A stretch of DNA of 64,000 nt from an uncultured delta proteobacterium (lineage in GTDB: Bacteria; Desulfobacterota; Desulfobacteria; Desulfobacterales; SG8-13), in contig CAWKCK010000003.1 of the NCBI GenBank assembly GCA_963848135.1, positions 558,001 through 622,000 of the forward strand, given 5' to 3'. The notes under the pieces were generated by a model, which did not search any database, was not told the origin of the DNA, and saw nothing but the letters and a program-made list of their open reading frames with translations. The first letter of the stretch is position 1, and each line of letters opens with the position of its first letter. Both the position numbers and the translations under genes were made by a program. Below, one piece after another: positions 7,741-23,347 of the stretch.

Positions 7741-8682
7741 ATGGAAAAGGAAAAACAGTTTTATGAGAGGCTGGCGGAGAGGGGTGTAAGCAGGCGGGAT
7801 TTTATGAAATACTGCACCTTCCTCACGGCGACCATGGGGCTGTCGTCTTCATTCGTCCCTAAGGTGGCCGAGGTGTTTGCCGCTCCTAAACAGAGACCCC
7901 CGGTCATCTGGCTGCATTTCGGAGAATGTACCGGATGCTCTGAATCATTGCTGAGATCACAGTATCCTTACATTGATGACCTGGTTTTGGAAATTCTGTC
8001 ACTCGAATATCACGAAACCGTCATGGCGGCAGCCGGCCAGCAGGCGGAAGACCAGCTTCACATGTCGATGAAAAAGCACAATGGGAATTTTATTTGTGTG
8101 GTCGAAGGGGCGATTCCGACCAAATACGACGGAGGTTACGGAAAAATCGGCGGCCGGACCTTCCTGGAAATTGCCAAGGAAGTCTGCCCGAAAGCCGCTG
8201 CCGTAATAGCGATCGGTGCCTGTGCCACTTATGGCGGCATCCCGGCGGCAGCCCCCAATCCCGGCGGATATGTGAGTGTAAGTGAAGCTATCGGTATCAA
8301 GACCATCAACCTTGCCGGATGCCCTCCCAATCCGGTCAACACGGTGGGCACCATCGTGAATTATCTTCTCTTAGGCAAATTACCGGCCATCGATGATCAG
8401 GGACGGCCGCTGTTTGCGTATGGAAAGACCATCCATGACCAGTGCCCCAGACGGTCCCATTTCGAAAACGAAGAATTTGTCGAGGAGTTTGGATCCGAAG
8501 AAGCGGCTATGGGTTACTGCCTATACAAAGTGGGATGCAGAGGTCCGGAAACCTATAACAATTGTCCGGTAGCCAAATTCAATGACGGCACCAGCTGGCC
8601 GATTGAGGCCGGTGCTCCCTGTCTCGGCTGCAGTGAGCCCAAGTTCTGGGATAAGTTCACGCCGTTTTATGAAGAACTGTAG
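7741..8682 (+). CDS. Periplasmic [NiFe] hydrogenase small subunit (group 1b/Hyn type)
   Basis: Tat signal SRRDFMK; ECTGCSES, GCPP, HDQC, CLYKVGC; SWP (Pro) indicates a medial [3Fe-4S] cluster; no C-terminal TM anchor; GGAGG RBS. Confidence 0.95.
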   Translation: MEKEKQFYERLAERGVSRRDFMKYCTFLTATMGLSSSFVPKVAEVFAAPKQRPPVIWLHFGECTGCSESLLRSQYPYIDDLVLEILSLEYHETVMAAAGQQAEDQLHMSMKKHNGNFICVVEGAIPTKYDGGYGKIGGRTFLEIAKEVCPKAAAVIAIGACATYGGIPAAAPNPGGYVSVSEAIGIKTINLAGCPPNPVNTVGTIVNYLLLGKLPAIDDQGRPLFAYGKTIHDQCPRRSHFENEEFVEEFGSEEAAMGYCLYKVGCRGPETYNNCPVAKFNDGTSWPIEAGAPCLGCSEPKFWDKFTPFYEEL

Positions 8683-8734
8683 GTTATGGTTTAATCGACT
8701 AACATTTCCTTTTTGAGGTAAAGGGAGGACCAAT

Positions 8735-10384
8735 ATGGCTCAGAGAGTAACAATAGATCCAATTACCAGAATCGAAGGCCACCTTCGCATTGAGGTCGAG
8801 GTTTCCGGTGGGAAGGTTGTCAATGCCTGGAGCTCCGGTCAGATGTTCCGTGGCATTGAAATGATTTTACTGGGACGCGATCCCCGCGATGCCCATCATT
8901 TTGTACAGCGTTCCTGCGGAGTCTGAACGTACACCCATGCACTGTCCTCGGTGAGGGCAGCCGAAATGGCCGTTGGCGTCAAAATCCCTGAGAACGCACG
9001 CATTATCAGAAATCTCTTGATGGGCGCGCAATTCCAGCATGACCATCTCGTTCATTTCTACCATCTGCACGCTCTTGATTGGGTGGACATCGTCAGTGCT
9101 TTAAAAGCCGATCCGGCCAAAACCGCTCAGCTCGCAGACAATGTCAGCAATGCCCAGGTCGGTGGAAGCGCTTATTTCAAACAGGTGCAACAGCGGCTGC
9201 AGACCTTTGTCGACAGTGGTCAGTTGGGCCCCTTTTCGAATGCCTACTGGGGCCATCCGGCTTACAAACTGCCACCGGAAGCCAATTTGATGGCCGCGGC
9301 GCACTACATCGAAGCCCTGCGGTTGCAGGCCAGAACCGCCAGGCTGCATGCCATATTTGGTGCGAAAAATCCCCATTTGCAATCTCTGGTTGTGGGCGGT
9401 GTCACATCCGTGAGAGACTTGAGGGCAGACCGCATTGCTGAATTTCTTTACATCACCAAAGAAACCCAGGAATTCATCAAGAACGTCTATATTCCCGATT
9501 TGCTCGCGGTTGCGTCCTTTTACAAGGATTGGGGTGGCATCGGCGGGACGACCAATTTCCTGGCCTGGGGAGAATTTCCTCTGAGTGATGCTGAGCCCGA
9601 AAGTCTTTACATGCCGCGCGGATACATCAAAAAGAAAGATATAGCCGGCGTCAGCATGCCGTTGCAGGACAATGTCACCGAAGACGTTACCCGCGGCTGG
9701 TATGAAAAGGGCGGTGCAAAGCACCCGTTCCAGGGGGAGACCAAACCGATTCAAAAGGATCCCGAGTACCGTCCCGAAAAAGGCCAGTACACCTGGTTCA
9801 AGGCCCCACGTTATGAAGGCGATCCGGCTGAGGTCGGCCCGCTGACACGTGTTTTGGTGGCCTATGCCAAGGGACACAAGGATATCAAGCCGATAGTCGA
9901 CAAGGTCCTCACGGACCTCGGGATTCCGGCAACGGCATTGTTCTCCACCCTCGGCAGAACGGCAGCAAGAGGGATTGAAACCATCGCCATCGGTGACGCC
10001 ATGCAGGGTTGGGTCATGGAGTTGGTGGAAAATGTCAAGAACGGTGATACCAAGACCTACCAGGCCTGGACCATGCCGGACAAAGGCATGGGCGTCGGGC
10101 TGAACGATGTGCCCAGGGGTTCTTTGGGCCACTGGATGGAAATCGAGGGTGGGAAGATAAAGAACTATCAGTATGTGGTCCCATCCACTTGGAATCTAGG
10201 TCCCAGGGATGCCAAAGGCAAACTGGGTCCTGTGGAGGAAGCACTCATCGGAACCCCGATAGCTGATCCGAAAAAACCGCTCGAGGTCCTCAGAACGGTG
10301 CACTCTTTCGATCCGTGCATTGCCTGCGGTGTGCACGTTATCGATCCCGATTCGAACGAGGTTTATAAAATTAAAGTTCTCTAA
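8735..10384 (+). CDS. [NiFe] hydrogenase large subunit with in-frame TGA (codon 64), probably selenocysteine
   Basis: ORFs 8735-8926 and 8951-10384 share a frame. Read-through gives RIEGH...QRSCGV(U)TYTH...VPRG...[11 protein letters not shown] plus a 15-aa cleavable extension. Confidence 0.92.
8924..8969 (+). promoter_or_regulatory. Bacterial SECIS-like hairpin
   Basis: TGA at 8924-8926; stem CTGTCCTC(8942-8949)/GAGGGCAG(8953-8960) with GGT loop; lower pairing CCAT/ATGG. Confidence 0.75.
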
Positions 10385-10393
10385 CTGTCATTG

Positions 10394-10434
10394 ATGCTCG
10401 TCAGCCTGGCCTCTCAAGGACTGACGAGCATCTC
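10394..10434 (+). terminator. Stem-loop after the hydrogenase structural genes (terminator or mRNA stabiliser)
   Basis: ATGCTCGTCAG...CTGACGAGCAT inverted repeat; weak U-tract. Confidence 0.45.
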
Positions 10435-10591
10435 TCCACCAGCTCCCCAAGCCGAGCGGCAAGAAAGGCCTTCGGGTGTTGTGTTCTTGCCGATTCACCA
10501 AGCCGGAATGCTCCCTTTGCCAAGTTAAGATCTTGCTTTGCCGACAACCCGGTGCGCTATAATGGCGGAGCGGCGGGGCTCAGTGAAAACA

Positions 10592-11113
10592 ATGAGCAAC
10601 CCATCCAATCAAATAATGATACTCGGTGTCGGGTGCATCCTTTACTCCGACGAGGGGTTCGGCGTCCGTGTCGTACAGGAAATGCAAAGGAGATATGCGT
10701 TTCCCGAAAATGTCTCCTTGGTTGACGGCGGCGTTTTGGGTGTCAACCTCTTGGGCGTGATATCTCAACCGGATAACCTGATCGTTGTGGATGTTATTCG
10801 CAACAAAGGCAACCCTGGGGATATCTATCGACTTGAAGGTGAACAGATACCCGAACGGATACGAGCCAAAAACTCCCTCCATCAGGTTGACTTTCTTGAA
10901 GCGCTGACCTTGTGCCAGGCTCTGGACAAGGTTCCCGAAACCGTAATAATCGGCGTAGAACCGAAAGATATCGAAACCCTCAGTATCGCGCTGACACCGA
11001 CAACTCAGTCACGAATGGAGGATGTCGTCACAATGGTTCTATCCGAACTGGATCGCCTGGGGATTCCCTATACGGAAGGAAATTCGGAAGATGTGCCTCG
11101 CTATCCCATCTAA
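10592..11113 (+). CDS. Hydrogenase maturation endopeptidase (HyaD/HybD family)
   Basis: LGVGCILYSDEGFGV, VDGG, VVD, SLHQ motifs; adjacent to the large subunit. Confidence 0.92.
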   Translation: MSNPSNQIMILGVGCILYSDEGFGVRVVQEMQRRYAFPENVSLVDGGVLGVNLLGVISQPDNLIVVDVIRNKGNPGDIYRLEGEQIPERIRAKNSLHQVDFLEALTLCQALDKVPETVIIGVEPKDIETLSIALTPTTQSRMEDVVTMVLSELDRLGIPYTEGNSEDVPRYPI

Positions 11114-11687: not shown

Positions 11688-13990
11688 ATGGAACATGTTG
11701 CCGCCAGGATTGTGGTTAACGGTATAGTGCAAGGTGTCGGATTCCGTCCGTTCGTTTTCAACCTGGCCAATCGTCACGGCCTCACCGGAGAGGTTGCCAA
11801 CACCTCCTCGGGAGTGGTGATCCTGATCGAAGGTGCTGCCGATCACATCAATGCATTTGCGACAGATCTTACTGCCAAGCCACCTCCTTTGGCGCATATT
11901 GTCGACGTTTCCCGGCGGGCGGTTGCCGTGACCGGTTATTCGGCATTCACAATCATCGAGAGCAGGGGTGATGAGGTGATGTCCACCCTCATATCTCCGG
12001 ATGTTTCCATCTGCGAAGACTGCCGGCGAGAACTTTTCGACCCGAACAATCGTCGCTTTCATTATCCTTTCATCAACTGCACCAACTGCGGTCCCCGCTA
12101 TACCATCATCGAGGATATTCCCTACGACCGAATCAAGACGTCGATGAGGCATTTCGAACTGTGCGCCGAATGCCGCGCGGAATACGAAGACCCTACAAAC
12201 CGTCGTTTTCATGCGCAACCCAATGCCTGCGCCGAATGTGGTCCCCGGGTAACGATTTACGACAACCAGCGCCAACGAATCGACCACCATAATCCCATAA
12301 AAAAAATCGTAACCCTACTAAAGAAGGGCGGTATCATTGCTGTTAAAGGACTGGGTGGTTTCCATCTTGCGGTTGATGCCGAGAACAATGAGGCCGTCAC
12401 CACTCTACGCTCCCGAAAACACCGTGAGGAAAAACCCCTCGCCCTCATGTCACCTAACCTTTCCGCCATCCGGGAATATGCCCATATCACCGATGATGAA
12501 AAGCGGTTGCTGACCGCCATTCATCGCCCCATCGTGCTGTTGAAAAAAAAGGAACCGAATACCATTGCCGCCAATGTGGCGCCCGGCAATCGCTCCTTCG
12601 GGGTTATGTTGCCATACACACCGTTGCACTATCTGTTGATGGAACAGGGGTTTAACGCCTTGGTAATGACCAGCGGGAACCTGAGCGAAGAACCGATTGC
12701 CATCGACAATGAGGACGCTTTTCACAGACTGGCCGGTATTGCGGATGTCTTTCTGATGCACAATCGTGGTATCTACCTGCGCAGTGACGACTCCATCGTT
12801 CGCCATGCCGCCGGGGCAACCCGATATTTGCGCCGTTCGAGGGGCTATGTCCCGGTACCGATTTTTTTGAGGCGTACATCCCCTGTTGTTCTCGGGGTCG
12901 GTGCTGAACTGAAAAGCACCGTGTGCTTGACCAAAGGGAAGATGGCCTTCCTGAGCCAGCATATCGGCGACCTGGAAAATTTGGCCACCAGTGAATACTT
13001 CGAAAAAACAATCGGGCACATGCGACGGATTCTGGAAATAGAGCCTGAGATCATCGCTTACGATATGCATCCCGACTACCTAAGCAGCCGCTGGGCAATG
13101 GAACAGCGGGGTATCAAGAAGGTCGCCGTCCAGCACCACCACGCACATATTGTCAGTGCCATGGCCGAAAATCATGTATCCGGTACGGTGATCGGGTTGT
13201 CCTTTGACGGTACAGGGTACGGCACCGATGGCCACATCTGGGGGGAGAGGTGCTCCTGGTTGATGAGCGGACGTTTGAGCGTGCAGCGCATGTTTCTTTG
13301 CTGCCGATGCCGGGGAGCGCATTTGCCATCAAGCAGCCCTGGCGCATGGGCTTGAGCTACCTCTATTCTGCCTTTGGTGATGATATTGGGAAATTATCAT
13401 TGCCCTTTTTGGACAGCATCGGGACCATCCGAATGTCGACTATTCTGGAGATGATCAGAAAGCGCATCAATTCGCCGCTTACTTCTAGTTTGGGCCGGTT
13501 GTTCGATGGTATCGCGGCTATTGCCGGACTCAGGCAAGAGGTGGCTTTTGAAGGCCAGGCGGCCATGGCGCTCGAAATGATCGCGGATACATCCGCCGGT
13601 GATGCCTATGACGTCCACTGGGAAACCGGACATCCGATCCAAATTCCTCCGGCACCGATCATCCGCAGCGTAGTGAATGATTTGATGCGGGGGACCCCCT
13701 TGCCGATCATCAGTGGGCGTTTCCACCTGACCCTTGTAAAAATTTTCGGCGAAATTTGTGATCATGTCCGCCGGGAGAGGGGGTTGACCCGGGTTGTCCT
13801 CAGTGGCGGGGTGTTTCAAAACGTTATAATGTTGCGCGAATTGATGCGCTATCTTGAAAACCGGAGATTTGAGGTCTACACTCACACACAGGTTCCGACC
13901 AATGATGGGGGAATTTGTCTGGGTCAGGCGGTAGTCGCGGCGGCGCAAACACACTCGCCGACACCAATCCAAGCAACCATCGATCTATAG
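11688..13990 (+). CDS. hypF: Carbamoyltransferase HypF (frameshifted at a G-run near 13240, probable sequencing error)
   Basis: Acylphosphatase VQGVGFR, two CxxC zinc fingers, HHHAH, DGTGYG, DGGICLGQ; G6 where WGGE requires G7. Confidence 0.93.
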
Positions 13991-14048: not shown

Positions 14049-15140
14049 ATGGCGCTCAAACACATTGACGAATACAGAGATGCCGGGCTGACCGGACCGC
14101 TGGCTGATAAGATTCACCGGATCAACACCAAATCTATCCGACTGATGGAGGTCTGCGGAACCCATACGGTATCGATTTTTCGCAGTGGCGTTCGTTCGAT
14201 CTTGCCGAAGACCATATCACTACTATCGGGTCCCGGTTGCCCTGTCTGTGTAACCGACCAAACCGAGGTAGACGCTTTCATAGCTCTGGCAAAATCCAAG
14301 GATGTCATTCTCACAACCTTCGGAGACCTCATGCGGGTGCCCGGCACGGTATCTTCACTCCAAAAGGAGCGTGCCGAAGGGCGGGACATTCGGGTCGTCT
14401 ACTCAACGACGGATGCCATAGAAATTGCACAAAAGAACCGGGGCAAGAAGGTTGTTTTCTTGGGGGTCGGCTTTGAAACCACGGCACCGACCATCGCCGC
14501 AGCGATTCTTTCTGCCAAGCAGTCAGGTCTCGACAATTTTTTCGTCTACTCTGCTCACAAGCTCGTGCCACCAGCCTTGACCGCTCTGATGTCACTGGAG
14601 GGGGTTATGATCGACGGGTTTATATTGCCGGGACACGTGTCGGTGATCATCGGTTTGAATGGATACCGGGATTTTTTCGACACCTATCGGATTCCCTGTG
14701 TGGTGGCCGGGTTTGAGCCGGTAGATTTGCTGCGGGCGGTTGCCATGCTTGTCGAGCAGGTGGAAAATGGTACACCGGCTCTGGAAAATGCTTACGGGCG
14801 AGCGGTAGCGGAATCAGGCAACGCCATGGCCCAGAGCATACTCGGGCAGGTATTTGAAATAACCGATACGGCCTGGCGGGGAATCGGTGTCATCCCAGGC
14901 AGCGGTCTGAAAATCCATCCGACCTATGCCGCCTATGACGCTGAAAGGGTTTTTTCTTTGGACCTTCCCGAAATCAGCAAGGAACCGGCAGGCTGTGCCT
15001 GCGGCGCGGTTCTCACCGGCTCAAAGATTCCACCTGAGTGCGCACTGTTTAAAACCGTGTGTACACCCATCGATCCGGTAGGTCCGTGCATGGTGTCGAG
15101 TGAGGGGACATGTGCAGCATATTACCGCTACCACAGTTGA
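14049..15140 (+). CDS. hypD: Hydrogenase maturation protein HypD
   Basis: MEVCGTHT, GPGCPVC, GFETT, PGHVS, GPCMVSSEGTCAAYY. Confidence 0.97.
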   Translation: MALKHIDEYRDAGLTGPLADKIHRINTKSIRLMEVCGTHTVSIFRSGVRSILPKTISLLSGPGCPVCVTDQTEVDAFIALAKSKDVILTTFGDLMRVPGTVSSLQKERAEGRDIRVVYSTTDAIEIAQKNRGKKVVFLGVGFETTAPTIAAAILSAKQSGLDNFFVYSAHKLVPPALTALMSLEGVMIDGFILPGHVSVIIGLNGYRDFFDTYRIPCVVAGFEPVDLLRAVAMLVEQVENGTPALENAYGRAVAESGNAMAQSILGQVFEITDTAWRGIGVIPGSGLKIHPTYAAYDAERVFSLDLPEISKEPAGCACGAVLTGSKIPPECALFKTVCTPIDPVGPCMVSSEGTCAAYYRYHS

Positions 15141-15147
15141 AATCGTT

Positions 15148-15278
15148 ATGAGACCTCACATTAAGCTCAATGACTGCGTTGCGAGGGGGCCTTCAAAATG
15201 CTCACGTACTTTCGTATTGTACGCTCTGCTTTTGAAACCCCCTCACGCCGTGTCCTTGAACTTAATCTAAGGTCTCAT
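15148..15278. repeat. Palindromic intergenic element (family B, GTAC-core hairpin)
   Basis: Terminal IR ATGAGACCT/AGGTCTCAT; nested arms around CGTAC...GTACG. Confidence 0.7.
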
Positions 15279-15403
15279 TGCGATTTTGGAGATTGCAATT
15301 GCATCTCAATATTAATAGAAATAATCGCCACCGACGGCATGGTGCAAGAATTCTAAACAAGAGGTTAGCGCTGAAGCCCAATTTAAATATACGGAATTAT
15401 GAA

Positions 15404-16414
15404 ATGAAATTTGACAAGGTGTTGCTCGATCACGGCAGCGGGGGGAAAATTTCCCACAGTTTGGTGACGGACGTTCTGTTACCGGTTTTTGACAACCCAA
15501 TTCTGGCCGATCTTCACGATGGGGCCATATTTGAACTAAATGGCAGACGGCTGGCTTTTACGACCGATAGTTATACCGTCGACCCCATATTTTTCCCTGG
15601 TGGTCATATCGGCGATTTGGCCATTAACGGGACAGTTAACGATATCGCCATGTGCGGGGGGTCTCCACTCTATTTAAGTGTCGGAATGATTATCGAAGAG
15701 GCTTTCCCCATGGCGGATCTGGAGAGGATTGTGGCGGGAATGGGTGCGGCTGCCCGTAAAGCCGGTGTAACCGTTGTCACCGGTGATACCAAGGTCGTTC
15801 CCAAGGGTGCAGCCGACAAGATTTTCATCAACACCTCCGGCATCGGGCTGATCCCGGAGGATGTGGACGTCGGCAGTACCAAGGCCCGTATCGGTGACCG
15901 TATTATTGTGAGTGGTACGGTTGCCGATCATGGCGTTACGATTCTCACGCAACGGGAAGGTCTTACCTTCGAGTCGACACTGACGAGTGACAGTGCTCCG
16001 CTAAATTATATGGTTGCTGACATGCTGGCACTGAAAGGGTCAGTGCATGTGCTGCGGGATCCCACCCGTGGCGGTGTCGGAACGGCTTTGAATGAGATCG
16101 CGCAAAAATCTGAAGTCGCTATCAAGATCGTTGAGGAGCGAATCCCGCTTAAACAGGAGGTGAACGGAATCTGTGAGCTGTTGGGTTTTGACCCCCTCTA
16201 TTTGGCCAACGAGGGCAAACTCCTGGTATTTGTTGCGTCGCACGATGCCGACCGGATGCTTGATATCATCCGTCAGAATGAGTACGGTCATGATGCAGCC
16301 ATCATCGGTGAGGTGGTGGCGGGAAATCCGGGCCGCGTTTATATGCAAACCCGTATTGGCGGCACCCGGATGGTCGATATGCTCGTCGGCGAGCAGTTAC
16401 CGAGAATTTGCTAG
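15404..16414 (+). CDS. hypE: Hydrogenase maturation protein HypE
   Basis: HGSGG, GDTKVV, RDPTRGG, C-terminal LPRIC. Confidence 0.97.
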   Translation: MKFDKVLLDHGSGGKISHSLVTDVLLPVFDNPILADLHDGAIFELNGRRLAFTTDSYTVDPIFFPGGHIGDLAINGTVNDIAMCGGSPLYLSVGMIIEEAFPMADLERIVAGMGAAARKAGVTVVTGDTKVVPKGAADKIFINTSGIGLIPEDVDVGSTKARIGDRIIVSGTVADHGVTILTQREGLTFESTLTSDSAPLNYMVADMLALKGSVHVLRDPTRGGVGTALNEIAQKSEVAIKIVEERIPLKQEVNGICELLGFDPLYLANEGKLLVFVASHDADRMLDIIRQNEYGHDAAIIGEVVAGNPGRVYMQTRIGGTRMVDMLVGEQLPRIC

Positions 16415-16793: not shown

Positions 16794-19700
16794 ATGCTGC
16801 AGAGATTATTCAGGCATTTTTCCTATATAGACTATTTGCAAAAGATCGTTCGCCGACCGGCGGTCGTCGTATTATTAACCCTGGCGATCACCATCATTTT
16901 TGCCACCCAAGTTCCCCGCCTTTCCTTCAAAACTTCCATATATGACCTTGAAATAGAAAATCTTCCAGAAACCGTTCGCTATGACGCTTTCAAGAAGTTG
17001 TTCGGTTCAGACGAGATTATCAGAATTGTCGTCACCGCCGACGATGTTTTTGATCCGCTCACCTTTGGCAAGATCAGTGAAATTGCCAATACACTTTCAA
17101 AGATCGATGGGGTCCGGCGGGTGATCAGCTTGCCGGGAATAAAACAGACGGTCGATCTCTCCGGGAATTGGAGCCTGGAAAAGTTTTTCACGGTCATCTC
17201 TCCGGTTCAATTGTTCAAGAAGTATCTTTTGGCCAGCGAACGCAAAACAACGGCATTGACCCTGGTTCTCGATGGCAAGGTCGATCAGGAACTGGTTATC
17301 CGAAGTGTAGAACAAGTCCTCGCTGCGGCACCGGAGGATATAGCACTCTACCAGGTGGGTATGCCCCTGGTGTCCCAGGCGCTCATGCAATATACCGCTA
17401 ACGATTTTTTCAGGTTGCCCCCGATAACTTTTATACTGATAGCGGCTGTTCTTCTTTTTCTCTTCCGCAAGATTCGTTTTGTATTGATTCCTCTCGGTTG
17501 CGTGACCCTGGCGCTGATCTGGACTTTCGGACTCATGGCCCTTATCAGGGTACCCCTGTCCATGCTCACCATGATCGTGCCCGTGTTTCTCATTGCCGTG
17601 GGTACGGCCTACTGCCTTCACATCATCACGGAATACATTGCATGCCTTCAGCATTCCGACTCACCGAAACAAGCGTGTGTAAAAACTTTTTCGAATATAT
17701 ACTTTCCGACATTCCTCGCCGTCTTAACCACTATTTTCGGGTTAGGATCTCTTCTGATCAACCGTATCCCCGCCATTCGTGAGTTCGCGCTGTTTTCATG
17801 TTTCGGTATGCTCAGCCTGCTGGCCATTACCCTTGTGTTTCTGCCGGCAGCGCTGACGTTATTACCAATGCCCGCTCAAAGACCGCGAGAGGGAGAAAAA
17901 AGATCCAAGACTTACAATCAATTCATCGAAAAAATCATCGATATCAACCTGAAGAAACAGAAGATCGTTCTCCCTATTCTCGCCGCGTTTGCCGTTTTTT
18001 GCGCCGTCGGGGTGTTACGCATCCGAGTAGAGACCAATCCGATCGACTATTTCAAAGAAGACACTTCTGTCAAACGCCATTTCCATGACATACACCGGGA
18101 TTTGTCCGGGAGTTTTCCCATAAATGTCACCGTGGAAAGTAAGGATGACGACTACTTCGAAAACCCCCAAAATGTCGCCGAGATCGAACATCTCCAACAA
18201 TTTCTGGAGACATTGCCCGGCGTTGATAAAAGCCTGTCATTCGCTGATTACATGAAGCTTGTCAATTATGCACTCAATGAATTCAATCCGGAATTCTACG
18301 CGCTTCCGGCTGAAGGCTTTGAAGCGCGAATGGTGATAAACAATTACGCCACCATGCTCGGCGAGGACGTGTTCACCAGTTTCATGAGTCAAAATTTATC
18401 ACAGGCGAACATCGTGCTGCTGACCCATCTTTCGAGCTCCCGAGAATTTCTGCAAACCCGAGACCAAATCATTAAATTCGCAAGACAAAATATGCCCAAA
18501 GATCTTACCGTGGATGTCACCGGTTTCGGAATCGTCATTTCAGCAAGCAGTCATCAATTGACTACCGGTCAAATCAAAAGTCTTTCACTGACGATGGTTC
18601 TGGTTTTTGCCATCATGTTCGCCTTATTTCTCTCTTTCAAAGTGGGATTGATCGCTATTATACCAAACATGTTCCCGATTGTCGTCAACTTCGGGATTAT
18701 GGGATGGCTCGGCTTAGAACTGTCGATGGTGACCAGTCTTATCGCCAGCATCGCCATTGGACTGGCAGTAGATGATACCATTCACTATCTGTTCCGATAC
18801 AACCGCGAATTCAGAAAGGATCTCGATAGCAACCGGGCGTTGAGTGAAACATTGAAACATGTGGGCCGGCCGATCGTATTTACGACGTTGACCATCTGTC
18901 TTGGTTTCTCAATTCTTATATTCTCCAGTTTCAAGCCGACGGCTGTATTCGGCATTATGATGGCCATCACAATGCTCTCGGCCCTTGTCGGAGATTTGAT
19001 TCTGCTACCCTCACTTATGCAGCACGTGCAACTGGTGACCTTGTGGGATTTGGTTCGATTAAAACTCGGCCAGGAACCTGCAAAAGGAATTCCTCTTTTT
19101 AAGGGCCTTTCACGAACCGAAGTGCACTACCTCATTTTGGCCGGATCGTTAAAAAATATCGAAGCCGGTGAAGTTCTTTTTCGAAAAGGCGATCCCAGCA
19201 ATTCGATGTATACGATCATTTCGGGTCAGATGGACGTGCTTGACTCTGTCACTGACGACACGACGTGTTTGGGATCAGCCAGTGATCGGTTGATCAATCG
19301 GATGAAAGCCGGTGATGTACTGGGTGAAATGGGTCTTCTCCGATCGGCACCACGGTCCGCTACAGTTGTTGCCTGCGAGCCGGTAGAACTTTTGCCGATA
19401 AATTGGGCGATGATCAAGCGTTTGCAATGGTTGTACCCGCCGACGGCTCGGAAATTTATGTACAATCTTTTGACGATCCTTTGTAATCGGGTCGAAAGAT
19501 TGACGACGTGCCTTGCCGAAGTTAAGGTTCTCGACGATGCGACCGGTTTGTGCAACAGGGAAAACTTTATTAAACTCCTGAATGGCGAAATCCATCGTTC
19601 GCGATGCTATAAAAACAACCTCTCTCTCTGCTTGATGACGATTGAATTTGAGAGCACTGACGGTGAACTCGACTTATGGCAACAAGAGAGCATACTGCAG

Positions 19701-19967
19701 TCTGTCAGCGAGACACTGATCCACAATGTTCGCGCCTTTGATGTCCTCGGGCGTTGTCATCGTCAACTCTTCGGTTTGTATTTTCCTCAAACACCGCGAG
19801 AGGAAGCCCGCGAGATCTGCATTCGTTTACAAAGCTATTTACAGAACAAGCATTACGATATCGATGGGCTCCAACTGAAGATAACTCTGGGCTTTGCGGG
19901 TTTAGATGACGACCAGATAGCGTCCGCAGATGAATTTATGAAGAAAGCCGTCGAAATGGTTGAATGA
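16794..19967 (+). CDS. MMPL/RND-family transporter fused to a cNMP-binding domain and a degenerate GGDEF domain
   Basis: Two TM blocks with IAVGTAY and GLAVDDTIH; GEMGLLRSAPRSATV cNMP cassette; DATGLCNR...GRCHRQLF in place of RxGGDEF. Confidence 0.85.
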   Translation: MLQRLFRHFSYIDYLQKIVRRPAVVVLLTLAITIIFATQVPRLSFKTSIYDLEIENLPETVRYDAFKKLFGSDEIIRIVVTADDVFDPLTFGKISEIANTLSKIDGVRRVISLPGIKQTVDLSGNWSLEKFFTVISPVQLFKKYLLASERKTTALTLVLDGKVDQELVIRSVEQVLAAAPEDIALYQVGMPLVSQALMQYTANDFFRLPPITFILIAAVLLFLFRKIRFVLIPLGCVTLALIWTFGLMALIRVPLSMLTMIVPVFLIAVGTAYCLHIITEYIACLQHSDSPKQACVKTFSNIYFPTFLAVLTTIFGLGSLLINRIPAIREFALFSCFGMLSLLAITLVFLPAALTLLPMPAQRPREGEKRSKTYNQFIEKIIDINLKKQKIVLPILAAFAVFCAVGVLRIRVETNPIDYFKEDTSVKRHFHDIHRDLSGSFPINVTVESKDDDYFENPQNVAEIEHLQQFLETLPGVDKSLSFADYMKLVNYALNEFNPEFYALPAEGFEARMVINNYATMLGEDVFTSFMSQNLSQANIVLLTHLSSSREFLQTRDQIIKFARQNMPKDLTVDVTGFGIVISASSHQLTTGQIKSLSLTMVLVFAIMFALFLSFKVGLIAIIPNMFPIVVNFGIMGWLGLELSMVTSLIASIAIGLAVDDTIHYLFRYNREFRKDLDSNRALSETLKHVGRPIVFTTLTICLGFSILIFSSFKPTAVFGIMMAITMLSALVGDLILLPSLMQHVQLVTLWDLVRLKLGQEPAKGIPLFKGLSRTEVHYLILAGSLKNIEAGEVLFRKGDPSNSMYTIISGQMDVLDSVTDDTTCLGSASDRLINRMKAGDVLGEMGLLRSAPRSATVVACEPVELLPINWAMIKRLQWLYPPTARKFMYNLLTILCNRVERLTTCLAEVKVLDDATGLCNRENFIKLLNGEIHRSRCYKNNLSLCLMTIEFESTDGELDLWQQESILQSVSETLIHNVRAFDVLGRCHRQLFGLYFPQTPREEAREICIRLQSYLQNKHYDIDGLQLKITLGFAGLDDDQIASADEFMKKAVEMVE

Positions 19968-20164: not shown

Positions 20165-22049
20165 ATGGCTATTGCAACCCAGCTTTTTGGAAGAACCATA
20201 GAAAAGGGTGAAACAATCTTTCATCAGGGTGATCCCGGTGATGAGATGTATATCATTCAATCCGGTGCGGTTGAAGTCTCCAAGTTACGGCAAGGCCGCA
20301 AGGTTGTTTTAACCCTGCTGGAGAAAGGTGATTTTTTCGGCGAGGTCGCCCTGCTCGACAGCAAACCCCGTTCAGCCACGGTTACCGCGATAACCCGCAC
20401 GCGATTGTTGCCGCTAGCGCGCACTACTTTTCTGAAAAGAATCGCATACAATCCAGATGTTGTCTTACGCGTTCTTCGCGCCCTCAGCCGGCGAGTCGAT
20501 CGGATGACCGAAACGATCCGATCGTTGATTGATAGCGATGAAAAGTTACGCCAAAAAGTGTTCTCCAGGAGTTATGACCTCCAAGACGATCAATTACTGC
20601 CTGGCGATAGCATTGTTCAAACCAACAGGAGGCGCCCGGAGTTACCTCAATCAAAGGCTGAAGAGACCCGGCGGGTGTCCCCGCCAATTTTCGGAACAGC
20701 GCGCCATTTTAATTCTCAAAATCCCATTTTCTTCCAACCCAATCAAATTATTTTTGAACTCGGTGATGCCGGCCACAATATGTACCTCATCATCCAGGGA
20801 GTGGTTGAAATTTTTCAAGCCGGGCAAAACGGAGATGACGTCCGCATGGCTCTGCTCGGTCCGGGTGATTGTTTCGGAGAAATGGCATTGATTACCGGCG
20901 ACCCGCGTACGGCATCGGCAAGGGCAATTTCAGCGGTGGCGCTTTTACCGGCGAATCAAGAAGACATGTTCAACGGTATCCGATCCGATCCGGAAGCGGG
21001 TCTTTTTTTCCTCCAGGTCTTAATTAACCGCCTGCGAACCATAACAGAGGCATTGGAACAGCCCGAGAAATCTTTGCAGACGCTTCGGCAGGCGATTATA
21101 CCGGTTATCAAAAGAACCGAGTAGTGTCTCCATCGGCATCAGTTCGCTTTCTTCCTGTGGCGGTTGTACCGCCGTTTTCGTCCGTAATCCACAAGAACTG
21201 AGTTGGATCACCGGCAATATTGATGTCCGCTATTGTCCAATGTTGATGGATCAGGAAAAGATTACGGAGGTAAATTTCGCTGTCGTCGATGGTGCGGTTC
21301 GAACTCGCAAAGACGAAGAAAAGCTCACCGAGGTGCGCCGTAAGAGCCGTTATTTGATTGCTATGGGGACATGTGCCGTTTTCGGCGGAATTCCTGCACT
21401 GGCCAATTCCTACGACCTCGAGGAATTGATTAGCGAGAGTTATGGGCGAACCACGGATCCGTTTTTATATTACCTGGCAGATAATGGGCTTGGAAATGAA
21501 TCTGATACCCCCGACATAGAGGCGCACCTCCAGCGAAAGGTCCGCAATTTATCCGACGTTGTTAAAGTAGACTACTTCTTACCCGGTTGCCCTCCTGCCC
21601 TTGATTTACTGATCGATCTACTAAAGGAACTGAAAAGCGAGCACCCTAGTGGCGCCAACCGGCAGATCGTATGCACGGAATGCGCACGAAACCAAAAAAA
21701 AGGTTCGATTGACACCATTCGGGTATCGCCGACAGCGGATATCGACAAAGAGTCATGTTTCTTGTCCAAGGGCATCCTTTGTTTGGGATTTTGGACGCGC
21801 GGGGGGTGCACGGCAGCATGCCCCGGGGGGGGACTTACGTGCTGGGGTTGCCGTGGACCGTCCAACAACGTCATCGCCAAACTCAACAAAGGAGAAACCC
21901 TTGAAGAAGTAATGCTGCATTCACTCGCTCGCCGTATGAAAAAAGATGAATCGAAGATCAAGCTCCCGATAAAGATCCTTCGACTCAAAGGTGGCAGTGC
22001 CCTGAGTTTTGATCAGAATTTTATCAAGGATGTGTCGAAAATAAGATGA
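20165..22049 (+). CDS. Tandem cNMP-binding domains apparently fused to an MvhG-like (group 3) [NiFe] hydrogenase small subunit; frameshift near 21110
   Basis: Two cNMP cassettes (FGEVALLDSKPRSAT, FGEMALITGDPRTAS). The frame of ORF 21240-22049 is open upstream and encodes SSCGGC, then GTCA..GG, PGCPP, VCTEC, CFL..G..CLG..TRGGC...CP...CWGCRGP. Confidence 0.8.
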
Positions 22050-23347
22050 ATGATAACCTGATATTACGAAAAGCGACCCGCATCGAGGGGAATGCCGACA
22101 TTCATATAGAATACGAAGAAAATCGGTTGAAGTCGGCACGGTTTCAGATTTATGAGTTTCGCGGTTTCGAAAAATTCGTCAGTGGTCGCCGGGCTGAGTG
22201 GGTACCGCAACTGGTATCACGCATTTGCGGGTTATGTTCGGTCGCTCATCAGGTGGCAGGTATACGGGCGGTTGAAAATGCCCTGGGGATCGAAGCCGAT
22301 TCGTGCACGAACAAGCTGAGAGATGTTCTCGTGCTGGCTGAATGGATCAGCAGCCATTCTTTGAGTTATTTTTTTCTTACCGTACCTGATTTCGTGGGTG
22401 AAAAAGGCGGGGTGTTTGAATTGCAAAAATATTACCCCGAAATCTTCAAGGAGGCTTTTGAACTGCGTCAGGCCGCGATGAAGATTATAACTCTATTTGG
22501 GAAAAGAGAAACACATCCGGTAACAATCGGTTTGGGACGATTTCTAGACCCGCCCGGTGCTGACGAATTGAATCTGGCCTGCGATATTGCGGGTGTTGTT
22601 AAAGAAAAACTTCGGACGATCCTTTTAAAAGTATCTTCCCAGTGGCGACTGGAAAAAGCCATCGAATTTCCAGAGGATCTCACGGTCCATTTTGTGGCCT
22701 TGTCAAAAGGTAAAGAACGCGACGACTTTTTTGTGTTTGACCGCAAAGGACAGTTGGTCAGACAGTTTTCGGTCGACGAGTTCGAAGACAATATCGAAGA
22801 AATGAGAGTTGACTGGAGCTTGTCCAAGATTCCTTACATCCATTCACTCGGCTTTCCCGATGGCATAATGCTGGTGGGGCCCCTGTCCCGAAGTTTTCTT
22901 GAAAACGGTTTTCTTTCCGATCCTGAGATCAGGCAGTTTGGAATCAGTGACATACTTATGGATCGCTCCAGTATTACTCTTGAAAGCTACGACGTATGTC
23001 GACTTCTTGAAATGTTTTGGTCAGCAAAAAGAATTGAATTCTTGTTGAAAAGTATCGGCAATTTTGGCTCTCCGCCGGAACCGGATTGGTCGGTTGCAGG
23101 CCAAGGCCTTGGTGCATTGGAAGCGCCGCGGGGACTCTTGATTCACAAGTACCTATTGAAAAACGGGTGTGTCGAGAAAGTCAGGTTGCTGGTAGCCACG
23201 CAGTTTAATAACGCGTTCATTAATTTGCTTATTACCGATCTGGCCCAGCGTCACAGCCACGGCGGGCAACTTACCACCAAAGGAAGCCGGCTAATCGGAC
23301 GTTGCATACGGTTATTGGATCCCTGTTTAAGTTGTGCTACCCATTAA
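22046..23347 (+). CDS. Group-3-like [NiFe] hydrogenase large subunit lacking a C-terminal extension
   Basis: RIEG, FRGFE, RICGLCSVAH, EAPRG, VAT, DPCLSCATH-stop; ATGA overlap with the small subunit. Confidence 0.9.
   Translation: MNDNLILRKATRIEGNADIHIEYEENRLKSARFQIYEFRGFEKFVSGRRAEWVPQLVSRICGLCSVAHQVAGIRAVENALGIEADSCTNKLRDVLVLAEWISSHSLSYFFLTVPDFVGEKGGVFELQKYYPEIFKEAFELRQAAMKIITLFGKRETHPVTIGLGRFLDPPGADELNLACDIAGVVKEKLRTILLKVSSQWRLEKAIEFPEDLTVHFVALSKGKERDDFFVFDRKGQLVRQFSVDEFEDNIEEMRVDWSLSKIPYIHSLGFPDGIMLVGPLSRSFLENGFLSDPEIRQFGISDILMDRSSITLESYDVCRLLEMFWSAKRIEFLLKSIGNFGSPPEPDWSVAGQGLGALEAPRGLLIHKYLLKNGCVEKVRLLVATQFNNAFINLLITDLAQRHSHGGQLTTKGSRLIGRCIRLLDPCLSCATH

What the first reader, a model, noticed from the sequence alone, without database searches (positions are those of the whole stretch)
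8735..10384. [NiFe] hydrogenase with selenocysteine at the N-terminal bridging ligand (CxxU) instead of the canonical NiFeSe site
Seen: the large subunit is interrupted by one in-frame TGA exactly at the second Cys of the N-terminal motif (QRSC61GV-U64-TYTH). A hairpin CTGTCCTC-GGT-GAGGGCAG follows, with its G-rich loop starting 23 nt after the UGA, matching bacterial SECIS geometry. The C-terminal motif is all-Cys (DPCIACGVH) with a cleavable extension, and the small subunit has the medial-cluster Pro. Known: characterised [NiFeSe] enzymes (group 1a Hys, Vhu/Fru) carry Sec at the terminal Ni ligand in DPUxxC, whereas the second Cys of the N-terminal motif bridges Ni and Fe. Inference: a group-1b enzyme independently acquired a bridging selenolate, giving a chemically distinct active site. 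I cannot exclude that this variant was already noted in selenoproteome surveys. The other apparent errors in this window are indels, not substitutions.
Basis: partly seen in the sequence, partly recalled or inferred. Interest (0 to 1): 0.85.

Follow-up and report, generated by a model that had tools for sequence, protein, structure and literature searches.

The report
Selenocysteine at a hydrogenase bridging ligand
The stop-like TGA inside this periplasmic nickel-iron hydrogenase gene is almost certainly a real selenocysteine codon at a residue that bridges nickel and iron; this variant was noted in print years ago, has not been studied biochemically in anything I could read, and is common in sulfate-reducer relatives.

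Summary
The large-subunit gene (8735..10384) has one in-frame TGA (8924..8926) at the second Cys of RSCGV-U-TYTH. An 8-bp hairpin with a GGU loop starts 15 nt downstream. The C-terminal motif is all-Cys.

The TGA is not an error. It sits at the same codon in 24 of 30 ortholog loci from the same order and in 72 of 79 named public loci. Contigs of independent sequencing runs show no other letter there.

In 79 Sec-type genes the hairpin codons have zero synonymous variation. In 18 Cys-type genes of the same clade they vary freely.

The genome holds selA, selB, selD and one tRNA-Sec. The enzyme is closest to group 1b periplasmic [NiFe] hydrogenases, and residue 64 aligns with D. gigas Cys68.

A CxxU hydrogenase was reported from an Olavius symbiont in 2007 (PMC1976440). 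Two Group 1 CXXU sequences are credited to Baltazar et al. 2011 (via PMC13582414). This scan has met the same variant in at least 10 other genomes.

What may be new is its extent, repeated Sec/Cys switching, and rare UxxU forms in Group 1.

The parts
7741..8682 (+). Small subunit (HynB-type), 313 aa from ATG 7741 (the open frame runs from GTG 7585), with a twin-arginine signal (SRRDFMKY)
   Evidence: translation. TIGR00391 hydA 410.5 bits (cut-off 179.5) and TAT signal TIGR01409 23.3 bits (cut-off 16.7); best solved match is D. vulgaris Miyazaki 1h2a_S at 391.9 bits, and the medial-cluster Pro is kept.
8735..10384 (+). Large subunit (HynA-type), 549 aa when TGA64 is read as Sec
   Evidence: Hyd-2 large 578 bits, NF033181 563 bits; 1frf_L 705 bits, 2frv_L 696 bits, 1h2a_L 694 bits. 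PF00374 707.6 bits with 1 TGA inside.
8909..8938 (+). N-terminal Ni-binding motif R-S-C61-G-V-U64-T-Y-T-H
   Evidence: ungapped alignment with D. gigas 1frv/2frv puts C61 on Cys65 and U64 on Cys68.
8924..8926 (+). In-frame TGA, read as selenocysteine 64
   Evidence: Same codon is TGA in 24 of 30 loci and 72 of 79 loci. No alternative letter is listed at this place in contigs of 4 runs.
8942..8960 (+). SECIS hairpin: 8-bp stem CUGUCCUC/GAGGGCAG with loop GGU. The stem starts 15 nt and the loop 23 nt after the UGA.
   Evidence: -11.7 kcal/mol for the local hairpin; zero synonymous variation at codons +7..+11 in 79 Sec-type genes against 0.94-2.29 bits in 18 Cys-type genes; mean local energy -11.2 against -6.0 kcal/mol.
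10310..10336 (+). C-terminal Ni-binding motif DPCIACGVH, all Cys (no Sec at the canonical [NiFeSe] position)
10337..10384 (+). 15-residue C-terminal extension ([15 protein letters not shown]) plus stop; expected to be cut off after His534 during maturation
   Evidence: In one search the mature solved chains end at query residue 534. That it is cleaved is inferred from the family.
10538..11113 (+). Hydrogenase maturation endopeptidase (HycI/HybD family)
   Evidence: PF01750 114.4 bits (cut-off 23).
11688..13990 (+). hypF, split into two overlapping frames (11688..13355 and 13250..13990) by a frameshift
   Evidence: acylphosphatase, zf-HYPF, Sua5 and HypF_C domains in the first frame, HypF_C_2 in the second; 1-nt gap at window 13244 against L047.
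14049..15140 (+). hypD
   Evidence: PF01924 495 bits.
15278..16414 (+). hypE-like (AIR synthase-related domains)
   Evidence: PF00586 and PF02769. One search also picked this place up as a weak SelD-family relative (C3:573431-574177).

Best explanation
This is the operon of a Tat-exported, periplasmic, group 1b-type uptake [NiFe] hydrogenase: small subunit, large subunit, maturation protease, then hypF, hypD and hypE.

Codon 64 of the large subunit is UGA and is read as selenocysteine. SelB carrying Sec-tRNA(Sec) binds the hairpin at 8942..8960 and delivers Sec to the ribosome paused at 8924..8926.

In the mature enzyme the selenolate of Sec64 takes the place of the thiolate that bridges Ni and Fe (D. 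gigas Cys68). The other three ligands (Cys61, Cys528, Cys531) stay sulfur. The small subunit keeps the standard cluster set.

Shown here:
- the codon, its conservation and the SECIS signature;
- the Sec machinery;
- the family placement and the residue equivalence.

Inferred:
- that selenium is actually inserted;
- that it bridges the metals;
- that it changes catalysis.

The Sec form most likely arose from a Cys ancestor within one Desulfobacterales-centred clade. It has since reverted to Cys several times.
For: (1) Conservation of the codon.
- TGA is at exactly this codon in 24 of 30 ortholog loci from 61 genomes of the same order.
- It is there in 72 of 79 named public loci: 71 CxxU and 1 UxxU. 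The other 7 have TGC or TGT.
- In an evenly drawn sample of 401 genomes of the phylum, 14 listed matches in 13 genomes carry it.

(2) SECIS signature.
- In 79 Sec-type genes of the main clade, codons +7..+11 (S-S-V-R-A) have zero synonymous entropy. In 18 Cys-type genes of the same clade the values are 0.94-2.29 bits.
- Mean entropy over codons +1..+13 is 0.52 against 1.29 elsewhere in Sec types. In Cys types it is 1.37 against 1.14.
- Local hairpin energy is at most -8 kcal/mol in 78 of 79 Sec types and in 5 of 18 Cys types.
- The loop has G at its first two positions, as PMC13582414 reports for bacterial SECIS elements.

(3) Sec machinery in the same genome.
- selB 374 bits, selA 622 bits, and selD 372 bits with its own in-frame TGA.
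- One tRNA-Sec, anticodon UCA and discriminator G, at 76.5 bits.

(4) The upstream 63 codons stay in frame. Their amino acids are conserved while synonymous sites vary.

(5) Independent data.
- A 363-nt contig of a run from another study matches 8600..8950 with 0 differences.
- No alternative letter is listed at 8924..8926 in any of 4 runs.
- Metatranscriptome contigs cover the codon.

(6) Family placement and residue equivalence.

(7) Need for the gene. It is the only group 1 large subunit found in this genome, so a broken copy would leave no periplasmic [NiFe] hydrogenase.

(8) Compatibility with function. The engineered E. coli Hyd-1 variant C79U kept 13% of native activity, the most of the four Sec variants (PMC8020662, passages read).
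Against: - No direct evidence of selenium insertion exists for this or any N-terminal CxxU hydrogenase in what I could read.
- The 67-nt region does not fold better than shuffled sequence (z = -0.59).
- The hairpin is nearly invariant in the main clade, so there is almost no base-pair covariation there. The variants seen are U-G wobbles and two single mismatches.
- The loop is only 3 nt.
- Rfam has no match, but I know of no general bacterial SECIS family in it, so this says little.
- The sequencing data laid were contigs, not raw reads.
- Cys-type orthologs occur in genomes that also hold selA (10 of 10). Sec is therefore not obligatory for this enzyme.
- Engineered Hyd-1 C79U was less active than the native enzyme and was not more O2-tolerant (PMC8020662).
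Confidence: 0.9

Rival explanations
1. The UGA is recoded through the SECIS and SelB, but as cysteine, by a non-canonical tRNA(ReC) of the kind described by Vargas-Rodriguez et al. 2018. The mature enzyme would then be an ordinary all-Cys [NiFe] hydrogenase.
For: PMC13582414 (passages read) points out that in genomes with tRNA(ReC) such UGA codons may be read as Cys, and calls this a limit of all in-silico work. A second selB-like gene appeared in this genome (C15:43659-45516).
Against: - ARAGORN at default settings finds one tRNA-Sec with discriminator G and only two ordinary 75-nt tRNA-Cys.
- The Rfam tRNA-Sec model finds one gene above threshold. All weaker matches whose places I checked against ARAGORN's list are ordinary tRNAs.
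- Low-threshold ARAGORN candidates have poor stems, and none was recovered by Rfam.
- The second selB is not a paralogue. The end of contig C15 matches the start of contig C4 at 95.9% over 6.7 kb, including the tRNA-His next to selB.
- Neither tool is validated for tRNA(ReC), so absence is not proven.
Confidence: 0.04
2. The UGA terminates translation. The locus would then be a pseudogene, or would yield a 63-residue peptide plus an N-terminally truncated protein, which is how databases annotate it.
For: Gene callers split it. Among the best 120 database proteins, all 10 with 89% identity or more are 472-aa fragments that start after the TGA.
Against: - A truncated protein would lack two of the four metal ligands.
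- The upstream 63 codons are conserved in frame across more than 70 genomes, with synonymous variation.
- A nonsense mutation would not recur at one codon with a co-conserved hairpin.
- This is the only group 1 hydrogenase of the genome, and its maturation genes lie next to it.
Confidence: 0.03
3. The TGA is an assembly or sequencing error for TGC or TGT.
For: The assembly has indel problems nearby: the hypF frameshift and a 1-nt gap at 13244 against a relative.
Against: - The errors seen are indels, not substitutions.
- The same TGA occurs in dozens of independent assemblies.
- A contig of a run from a different study is identical over 8600..8950.
- The hairpin's synonymous-site conservation is tied to the TGA.
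Confidence: 0.01

Closest known systems
Group 1 [NiFe] hydrogenase sequences with an N-terminal CXXU motif (Baltazar et al. 2011, Eur J Inorg Chem; seen only as cited in PMC13582414 and PMC8020662), and the CxxU 'FrhA' of the Olavius symbionts' metagenome (Zhang & Gladyshev 2007, PMC1976440, passages read)
   Same: Sec is encoded at the second Cys of the N-terminal Ni motif and is predicted to bridge Ni and Fe. An ortholog 83% identical to the query, with the same TGA and hairpin, lies in a record titled 'Olavius sp. associated proteobacterium Delta 1' (L062).
   Different: Those reports concern two or three sequences. Here the state is found in 81 of 123 distinct full-length relatives, a set biased towards the query. 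I could not read Baltazar 2011, so I cannot say whether its two Group 1 sequences belong to this clade. I could not see Fig. 3B of PMC1976440 either, so I cannot say whether its sequence is this ortholog.
Standard periplasmic [NiFe] hydrogenases of Desulfovibrio (D. gigas 1frv/2frv, D. fructosovorans 1frf, D. vulgaris Miyazaki 1h2a). The label 'group 1b' for these is recalled, not from a call.
   Same: These are the best solved relatives of both subunits (694-705 bits large, 326-392 bits small). Shared features are the Tat signal, the medial-cluster Pro, the all-Cys C-terminal motif, the C-terminal extension and the adjacent protease.
   Different: Sec replaces the Cys68 equivalent. The solved enzymes have four Cys ligands.
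Canonical [NiFeSe] hydrogenases (Desulfomicrobium baculatum 1cc1, D. vulgaris Hildenborough 2wpn; group 1a per PMC8020662)
   Same: A periplasmic hydrogenase that uses one Sec as a Ni ligand, decoded through a SECIS hairpin within the coding sequence.
   Different: Their Sec is the terminal ligand in the C-terminal DPUxxC motif; here it is the bridging ligand of the N-terminal motif. They are distant in sequence (about 320-335 bits against about 700). The HysA model scores 413 bits against a cut-off of 780. This small subunit keeps the Pro where those enzymes are said to have a fourth Cys for a medial [4Fe-4S] cluster; that residue detail is recalled.
Engineered E. coli Hyd-1 C79U (Evans et al. 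2021, PMC8020662, passages read)
   Same: Sec at the second Cys of the N-terminal motif of a group 1 enzyme. The variant was active (13% of native) and had a lower KM for H2.
   Different: It is an artificial substitution in an O2-tolerant group 1d enzyme, made through UAG suppression. Here the substitution is natural, conserved, and lies in a standard O2-sensitive-type scaffold.
Group 4 [NiFeSe] hydrogenases with N-terminal CXXU, UXXC or UXXU motifs (Front Microbiol 2026, PMC13582414, passages read)
   Same: Sec in the N-terminal motif, a SECIS hairpin with G in the first or second loop position, a mosaic of Sec and Cys types in the tree, and mis-annotation as truncated genes.
   Different: Those are membrane-bound, energy-converting, cytoplasm-facing Group 4 enzymes, found in about 0.2% of sequences. 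This is a periplasmic Group 1 enzyme, and Sec is the commoner state in its clade as sampled here.

Membership tests
Group 1 periplasmic uptake [NiFe] hydrogenase, standard (1b-like) type | Large subunit of the NiFeSe_Hases family with an N-terminal RxCGxCxxxH and a C-terminal DPCxxCxxH motif | tested here: met
   PF00374 707.6 bits. Both motifs are present, with U in place of the second Cys of the first.
Group 1 periplasmic uptake [NiFe] hydrogenase, standard (1b-like) type | Small subunit with a twin-arginine signal and standard cluster ligands (medial-cluster Pro) | tested here: met
   TIGR00391 410.5 bits and TAT signal 23.3 bits against a cut-off of 16.7. The Pro aligns with D. gigas 'WP'. 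The link from this Pro to a [3Fe-4S] cluster is recalled.
Group 1 periplasmic uptake [NiFe] hydrogenase, standard (1b-like) type | Closer to the Desulfovibrio periplasmic [NiFe] enzymes than to the other subgroups | tested here: met
   694-705 bits to 1frf, 2frv and 1h2a; 617 to A. vinosum 3myr; 525 to Hyd-2; 509 to Hyd-1; about 320-335 to [NiFeSe]. A formal HydDB classification was not available.
Group 1 periplasmic uptake [NiFe] hydrogenase, standard (1b-like) type | C-terminal extension and a dedicated endopeptidase | tested here: met
   15 residues follow His534. A HycI-family gene lies at 10538..11113. Cleavage itself was not tested.
Canonical [NiFeSe] hydrogenase (HysA, group 1a) | Sec at the first Cys of the C-terminal motif (DPUxxC) | tested here: not met
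   The motif is DPCIACGVH with TGC codons.
Canonical [NiFeSe] hydrogenase (HysA, group 1a) | Scores above the NCBIfam HysA (NF045518) or NiFeSe_hydrog (NF033181) cut-offs | tested here: not met
   412.7 bits against 780, and 563.4 bits against 600.
Bacterial selenoprotein gene (SelB-dependent UGA recoding) | In-frame UGA aligned with Cys in homologues | tested here: met
   38 of the 123 distinct full-length relatives have Cys at this codon (examples). All solved homologues aligned have Cys there.
Bacterial selenoprotein gene (SelB-dependent UGA recoding) | Stem-loop shortly downstream of the UGA with G in the first or second loop position | tested here: met
   8-bp stem, loop GGU, 23 nt from the UGA to the loop. 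The G rule is as stated in PMC13582414. The usual 16-37 nt spacing range is recalled. Conservation is tied to the TGA.
Bacterial selenoprotein gene (SelB-dependent UGA recoding) | selA, selB, selC and selD present in the genome | tested here: met
Bacterial selenoprotein gene (SelB-dependent UGA recoding) | Selenium shown in the protein | not testable with these tools
   Needs 75Se labelling, mass spectrometry or X-ray spectroscopy.
N-terminal CXXU-type [NiFeSe] variants of Group 1 | UGA at the second Cys of the N-terminal motif of a Group 1 large subunit | tested here: met

The most novel reading that the evidence does not exclude
N-terminal selenocysteine is not a curiosity of two or three sequences. 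It is the commoner state in a large clade of standard periplasmic hydrogenases of Desulfobacterales and Syntrophobacterales.

- It was probably gained once there, since one shared hairpin sequence is found throughout.
- It was lost to Cys at least about six times, in genomes that keep the Sec machinery.
- It was gained independently, with a different hairpin, in a second Group 1 clade.
- Both clades also hold double-Sec (UxxU) forms. These have so far been printed only for Group 4.

Nature would thus offer a matched series (C/C, C/U, U/U) in one scaffold, for asking what selenium does at each nickel ligand.
Probability: 0.55. Interest if true: 0.6.

Novelty: new member of a known kind. Interest (0 to 1): 0.4.

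Why it matters
What is known about selenium in hydrogenases, in everything I could read, comes from enzymes with Sec at one terminal Ni ligand. There it is credited with higher H2 production and with protection against O2 damage.

A natural, conserved enzyme with selenium at a Ni-Fe bridging position is a different experiment that evolution has already run many times. The only laboratory counterpart, E. coli Hyd-1 C79U, is an artificial construct in a different scaffold.

Close Sec-type and Cys-type orthologs (and rare double-Sec ones) exist side by side in organisms that can all make Sec. Comparing them could show whether a bridging selenolate changes redox tuning, CO/CN geometry, maturation or oxygen response.

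There is also a practical point. Public protein databases record the Sec forms as 472-residue fragments. Surveys of hydrogenase diversity in sulfate-reducing sediments therefore miss or misclassify a common enzyme.

Tried and rejected
- Thermodynamic test of the region. The 67-nt fold is no better than shuffles (z = -0.59), so I relied on comparative evidence.
- Rfam scan of 8700..9100 at E up to 10: no match.
- Formal covariation count. I did not run it. The hairpin is nearly invariant in the main clade, and the second clade's hairpin is shifted by one nucleotide, so one structure line cannot cover both. The only compensatory change seen is U-A to A-U between L155 and L156-L158, among 3 distinct sequences.
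- Hypothesis that Cys forms reflect loss of the Sec machinery: rejected. selA is present above cut-off in 10 of 10 Cys-type genomes tested.
- Second selB as a SelB* paralogue: rejected. It is a contig overlap.
- Search for tRNA(ReC). Nothing convincing was found. Seven low-threshold ARAGORN candidates were inspected and set aside.
- Raw reads. Only assembled contigs of runs were available, so no read-level allele frequencies. The RNA-run contigs are short and mostly come from relatives (4-31 differences). They show that the region is present in an RNA library, not that this organism expresses it.
- Papers not held: Baltazar 2011 and PMC3119410. Which two Group 1 sequences were reported in 2011 stays unknown to me.
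- Figures and supplements of PMC1976440 and PMC13582414 were not seen and may bear on what is already printed.
- Association of Thr at +3 with Sec. It is suggestive but not significant: 7 independent pairs, sign test median p = 0.125.
- A cultured carrier of the Sec form was not identified. Among the 80 named loci, the only one whose title names a cultured strain is Desulfosarcina alkanivorans PL12, and it has Cys.
Full report
**1. The observation**

Reading 8600..10500 and translating 8735..10384 with TGA as U gives a 549-residue [NiFe] hydrogenase large subunit.
- It has one in-frame TGA at 8924..8926, codon 64, in the motif R-S-C61-G-V-U64-T-Y-T-H.
23 nt lie between the UGA and the loop.
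- The C-terminal motif is DPCIACGVH (10310..10336), followed by 15 residues.
- The small subunit (7741..8682) has a twin-arginine signal. It keeps the Pro of 'SWPIEAGAPCLGC', which aligns with D. gigas 'NWPVQAGHPCIAC'.

Every descriptive statement of the finding is confirmed.

**2. Is the TGA real?**

Comparison with relatives:
- In a search of 61 genomes of the same order, 48 matches were listed and 30 of them, in 30 genomes, carry exactly one TGA.
- For the 30 loci returned, the TGA is at exactly this codon in 24. The other 6 have Cys.
- A scan of named public genomes gave 80 loci, 79 of which hold the N-terminal region. Of these, 71 read C-x-x-TGA, one reads TGA-x-x-TGA, and 7 read TGC or TGT.
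- In an evenly drawn sample of 401 genomes of the phylum, 186 have a relative at E of 1e-120 or better. Among the 150 listed matches, 14 matches in 13 genomes have the N-terminal TGA. All of these were checked at the codon.

Sequencing data:
- Contigs of four public runs were laid on 8600..9400: three DNA studies and one metatranscriptome.
- None lists any alternative letter at 8924..8926.
- One 363-nt contig, from a study other than the best holder's, is identical over 8600..8950.
- These are contigs, not raw reads.
- Summed contig depth spikes just at 8897..8977. That is what a nucleotide-conserved element shared by many strains would give.

**3. The SECIS**

The 67-nt region as a whole does not fold better than shuffles (z = -0.59). 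Rfam has no match. The case for the hairpin is comparative.
- All Sec-type genes of the main clade keep the 19-nt hairpin almost letter for letter. Cys-type genes encode the same L-S-S-V-R-A with other codons.
- Among 79 Sec-type genes, synonymous codon entropy at codons +7..+11 is zero. Among 18 Cys-type genes of the same clade it is 0.94-2.29 bits.
- Over codons +1..+13 the mean is 0.52 against 1.29 elsewhere in Sec types. In Cys types it is 1.37 against 1.14.
- The local hairpin is at most -8 kcal/mol in 78 of 79 Sec types and in 5 of 18 Cys types.
- Within the main clade the changes in the stem are U-G wobbles and two single mismatches, so covariation is nearly absent.
- Several Cys types nested among Sec types still show remnants, for example the AGG Arg codon. 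The basal Cys types use CGN. This fits Sec-to-Cys reversion followed by decay.

**4. The machinery**

- The genome (98.65% complete) holds selB (374 bits), selA (622 bits) and selD (372 bits, itself with one TGA).
- It holds one tRNA-Sec with anticodon UCA and discriminator G (Rfam 76.5 bits).
- A second selB-like hit on contig C15 is not a paralogue. The end of C15 matches the start of C4 at 95.9% over 6.7 kb.
- No convincing tRNA(ReC)-like gene was found, though the tools are not validated for it.

**5. What the enzyme is**

- The best solved relatives of the large subunit are the periplasmic [NiFe] enzymes of D. fructosovorans (705 bits), D. gigas (696) and D. vulgaris Miyazaki (694).
- Lower scores go to A. 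vinosum (617), Hyd-2 (525), Hyd-1 (509) and the [NiFeSe] enzymes (about 320-335).
- The HysA model scores 413 bits against 780, and NF033181 scores 563 against 600.
- An ungapped alignment puts C61 on D. gigas Cys65 and U64 on Cys68.
- That Cys68 bridges Ni and Fe is recalled from the D. gigas structure papers. It agrees with PMC13582414, which says Sec in an N-terminal CXXU motif is predicted to bridge Ni and Fe.
- Downstream lie the maturation protease, hypF (split by a frameshift), hypD and a hypE-like gene.
- Only one other [NiFe] large subunit, a short cytoplasmic-type one at 22046..23347, is found in the genome.

**6. Evolution**

A tree was built from 123 distinct full-length relatives: 81 CxxU, 38 CxxC and 4 UxxU. 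Nine partial rows were dropped and the Sec positions were masked.
- All but two CxxU forms fall in one starred clade of 101 sequences, which also holds 20 Cys forms and 2 UxxU forms.
- The clades outside it are all-Cys, except one distant clade described below.
- At least 8 CxxU/CxxC changes are needed, and 6 of them are forced by well-supported branches.
- The sample is biased towards the query, so the proportions are not frequencies in nature.
- One shared hairpin sequence argues for a single gain in the main clade and several losses. This is an inference.
- The losses are not explained by loss of Sec machinery: selA is present in 10 of 10 Cys-type genomes tested.

**7. Things beyond the finding**

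- A second Group 1 clade, about 52% identical (L155-L158), also has N-terminal TGA codons. Its hairpin is different: CAGCUC-CGUGA-GAGCUG, or CUGCUC-CGUGC-GAGCAG in L155, which gives one compensatory pair. This suggests an independent gain.
- Four genes read TGA at both N-terminal Cys positions, with one hairpin: L122 and L131 in the main clade, L155 and L156 in the second.

**8. What is known**

[quoted passage not shown] An ortholog with this TGA lies in a record titled Olavius-associated Delta 1 (L062).
- PMC13582414 (2026, passages read) says two Group 1 sequences and one Group 3 sequence with N-terminal CXXU were reported by Baltazar et al. 2011. It calls UXXC and UXXU 'previously unrecognized' and describes them for Group 4 only.
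- PMC8020662 (2021, passages read) mentions 'purported examples' of a substituted bridging Cys. It reports that engineered Hyd-1 C79U keeps 13% activity.
- Baltazar 2011 itself could not be read.
- A search for 'UXXU' plus 'hydrogenase' found 3 papers, and only the Group 4 paper is relevant.
- A 2026 review of prokaryotic selenoproteins lists only UxxC for hydrogenase catalytic (alpha) subunits in the passages shown.
- Databases hold the Sec forms as 472-residue fragments: all 10 of the best 120 hits with 89% identity or more.
- Earlier notes of this scan describe the same CxxU variant in at least 10 other genomes, and Group 1 UxxU forms in at least 3. These are AI notes, not independent evidence.

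**9. Verdict**

The TGA is a genuine selenocysteine codon at the bridging-ligand position of a standard periplasmic [NiFe] hydrogenase (confidence 0.9). The kind is already in print, so this gene is a new member of a known, uncharacterised kind. Its breadth, the repeated Sec/Cys switching and the Group 1 UxxU forms are the parts that may be new.

Noticed in passing
L122:3001-4641; L131 (G316:C61:14989-16626); L155 (G214:C139:1065-2768); L156 (G134:C78:1430-3127): Four Group 1 large-subunit genes read TGA at both Cys positions of the N-terminal motif (R-T-U-G-V-U or R-I-U-G-V-U), with a single downstream hairpin. In the papers I could search, the UxxU form is printed only for Group 4.
   Followed up: partly
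L155-L158 (G214, G134, G289, G372): A second Group 1 clade, about 52% identical to the query, carries N-terminal Sec codons with a different hairpin (6-bp stem, 5-nt loop CGUGA or CGUGC). L155 and L156-L158 differ by one compensatory pair. This is probably an independent gain.
   Followed up: partly
window 11688..13990: hypF is split into two overlapping frames. A 1-nt gap at about 13244 relative to the 92%-identical L047 marks the likely site. This is either an assembly indel or a real frameshift.
   Followed up: partly
window 20165..23347: A second, cytoplasmic-type [NiFe] hydrogenase lies here: small subunit 21240..22049 and a 433-aa large subunit 22046..23347 without TGA. It is preceded by a protein with two cNMP-binding domains (20165..21124).
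   Followed up: no
window 16794..19967: A 1057-aa fusion of an MMPL/RND-type membrane domain with a cNMP-binding domain and a GGDEF domain, directly after the hyp genes.
   Followed up: no
G000:C15:39315-46041 and G000:C4:1-6715: The end of contig C15 and the start of contig C4 match at 95.9% over 6.7 kb (selB, tRNA-His). This is assembly redundancy or a second strain, and it mimics a second selB.
   Followed up: yes
window 8933..8935 (residue 67) and relatives: The residue three positions after the Sec/Cys site is Thr in 74 of 81 CxxU forms (Ile in 5, Val in 2). It is Val in 35 of 38 CxxC forms. With 7 independent pairs the association is not significant (median p = 0.125).
   Followed up: partly
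L132 (G285:C89:13025-14665): A second TGA sits at the codon of a conserved Trp (AY-W-GHP). This is probably an error or an inactivating mutation, not Sec.
   Followed up: partly
L047, at the place matching window 8369: The 92%-identical relative has a 1-nt insertion inside its small-subunit gene relative to the window, whose frame is intact. So indels occur in related assemblies too.
   Followed up: no
G000:C3:479380-480300: The genome's selD has an in-frame TGA of its own, so it is probably a selenoprotein form of SelD.
   Followed up: no
window 8897..8977: The summed depth of metagenome contigs at 88% likeness or more rises 10- to 100-fold just over the TGA and hairpin (594, 1872 and 151 in three runs). 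This fits a nucleotide-conserved element shared by many sediment strains.
   Followed up: partly
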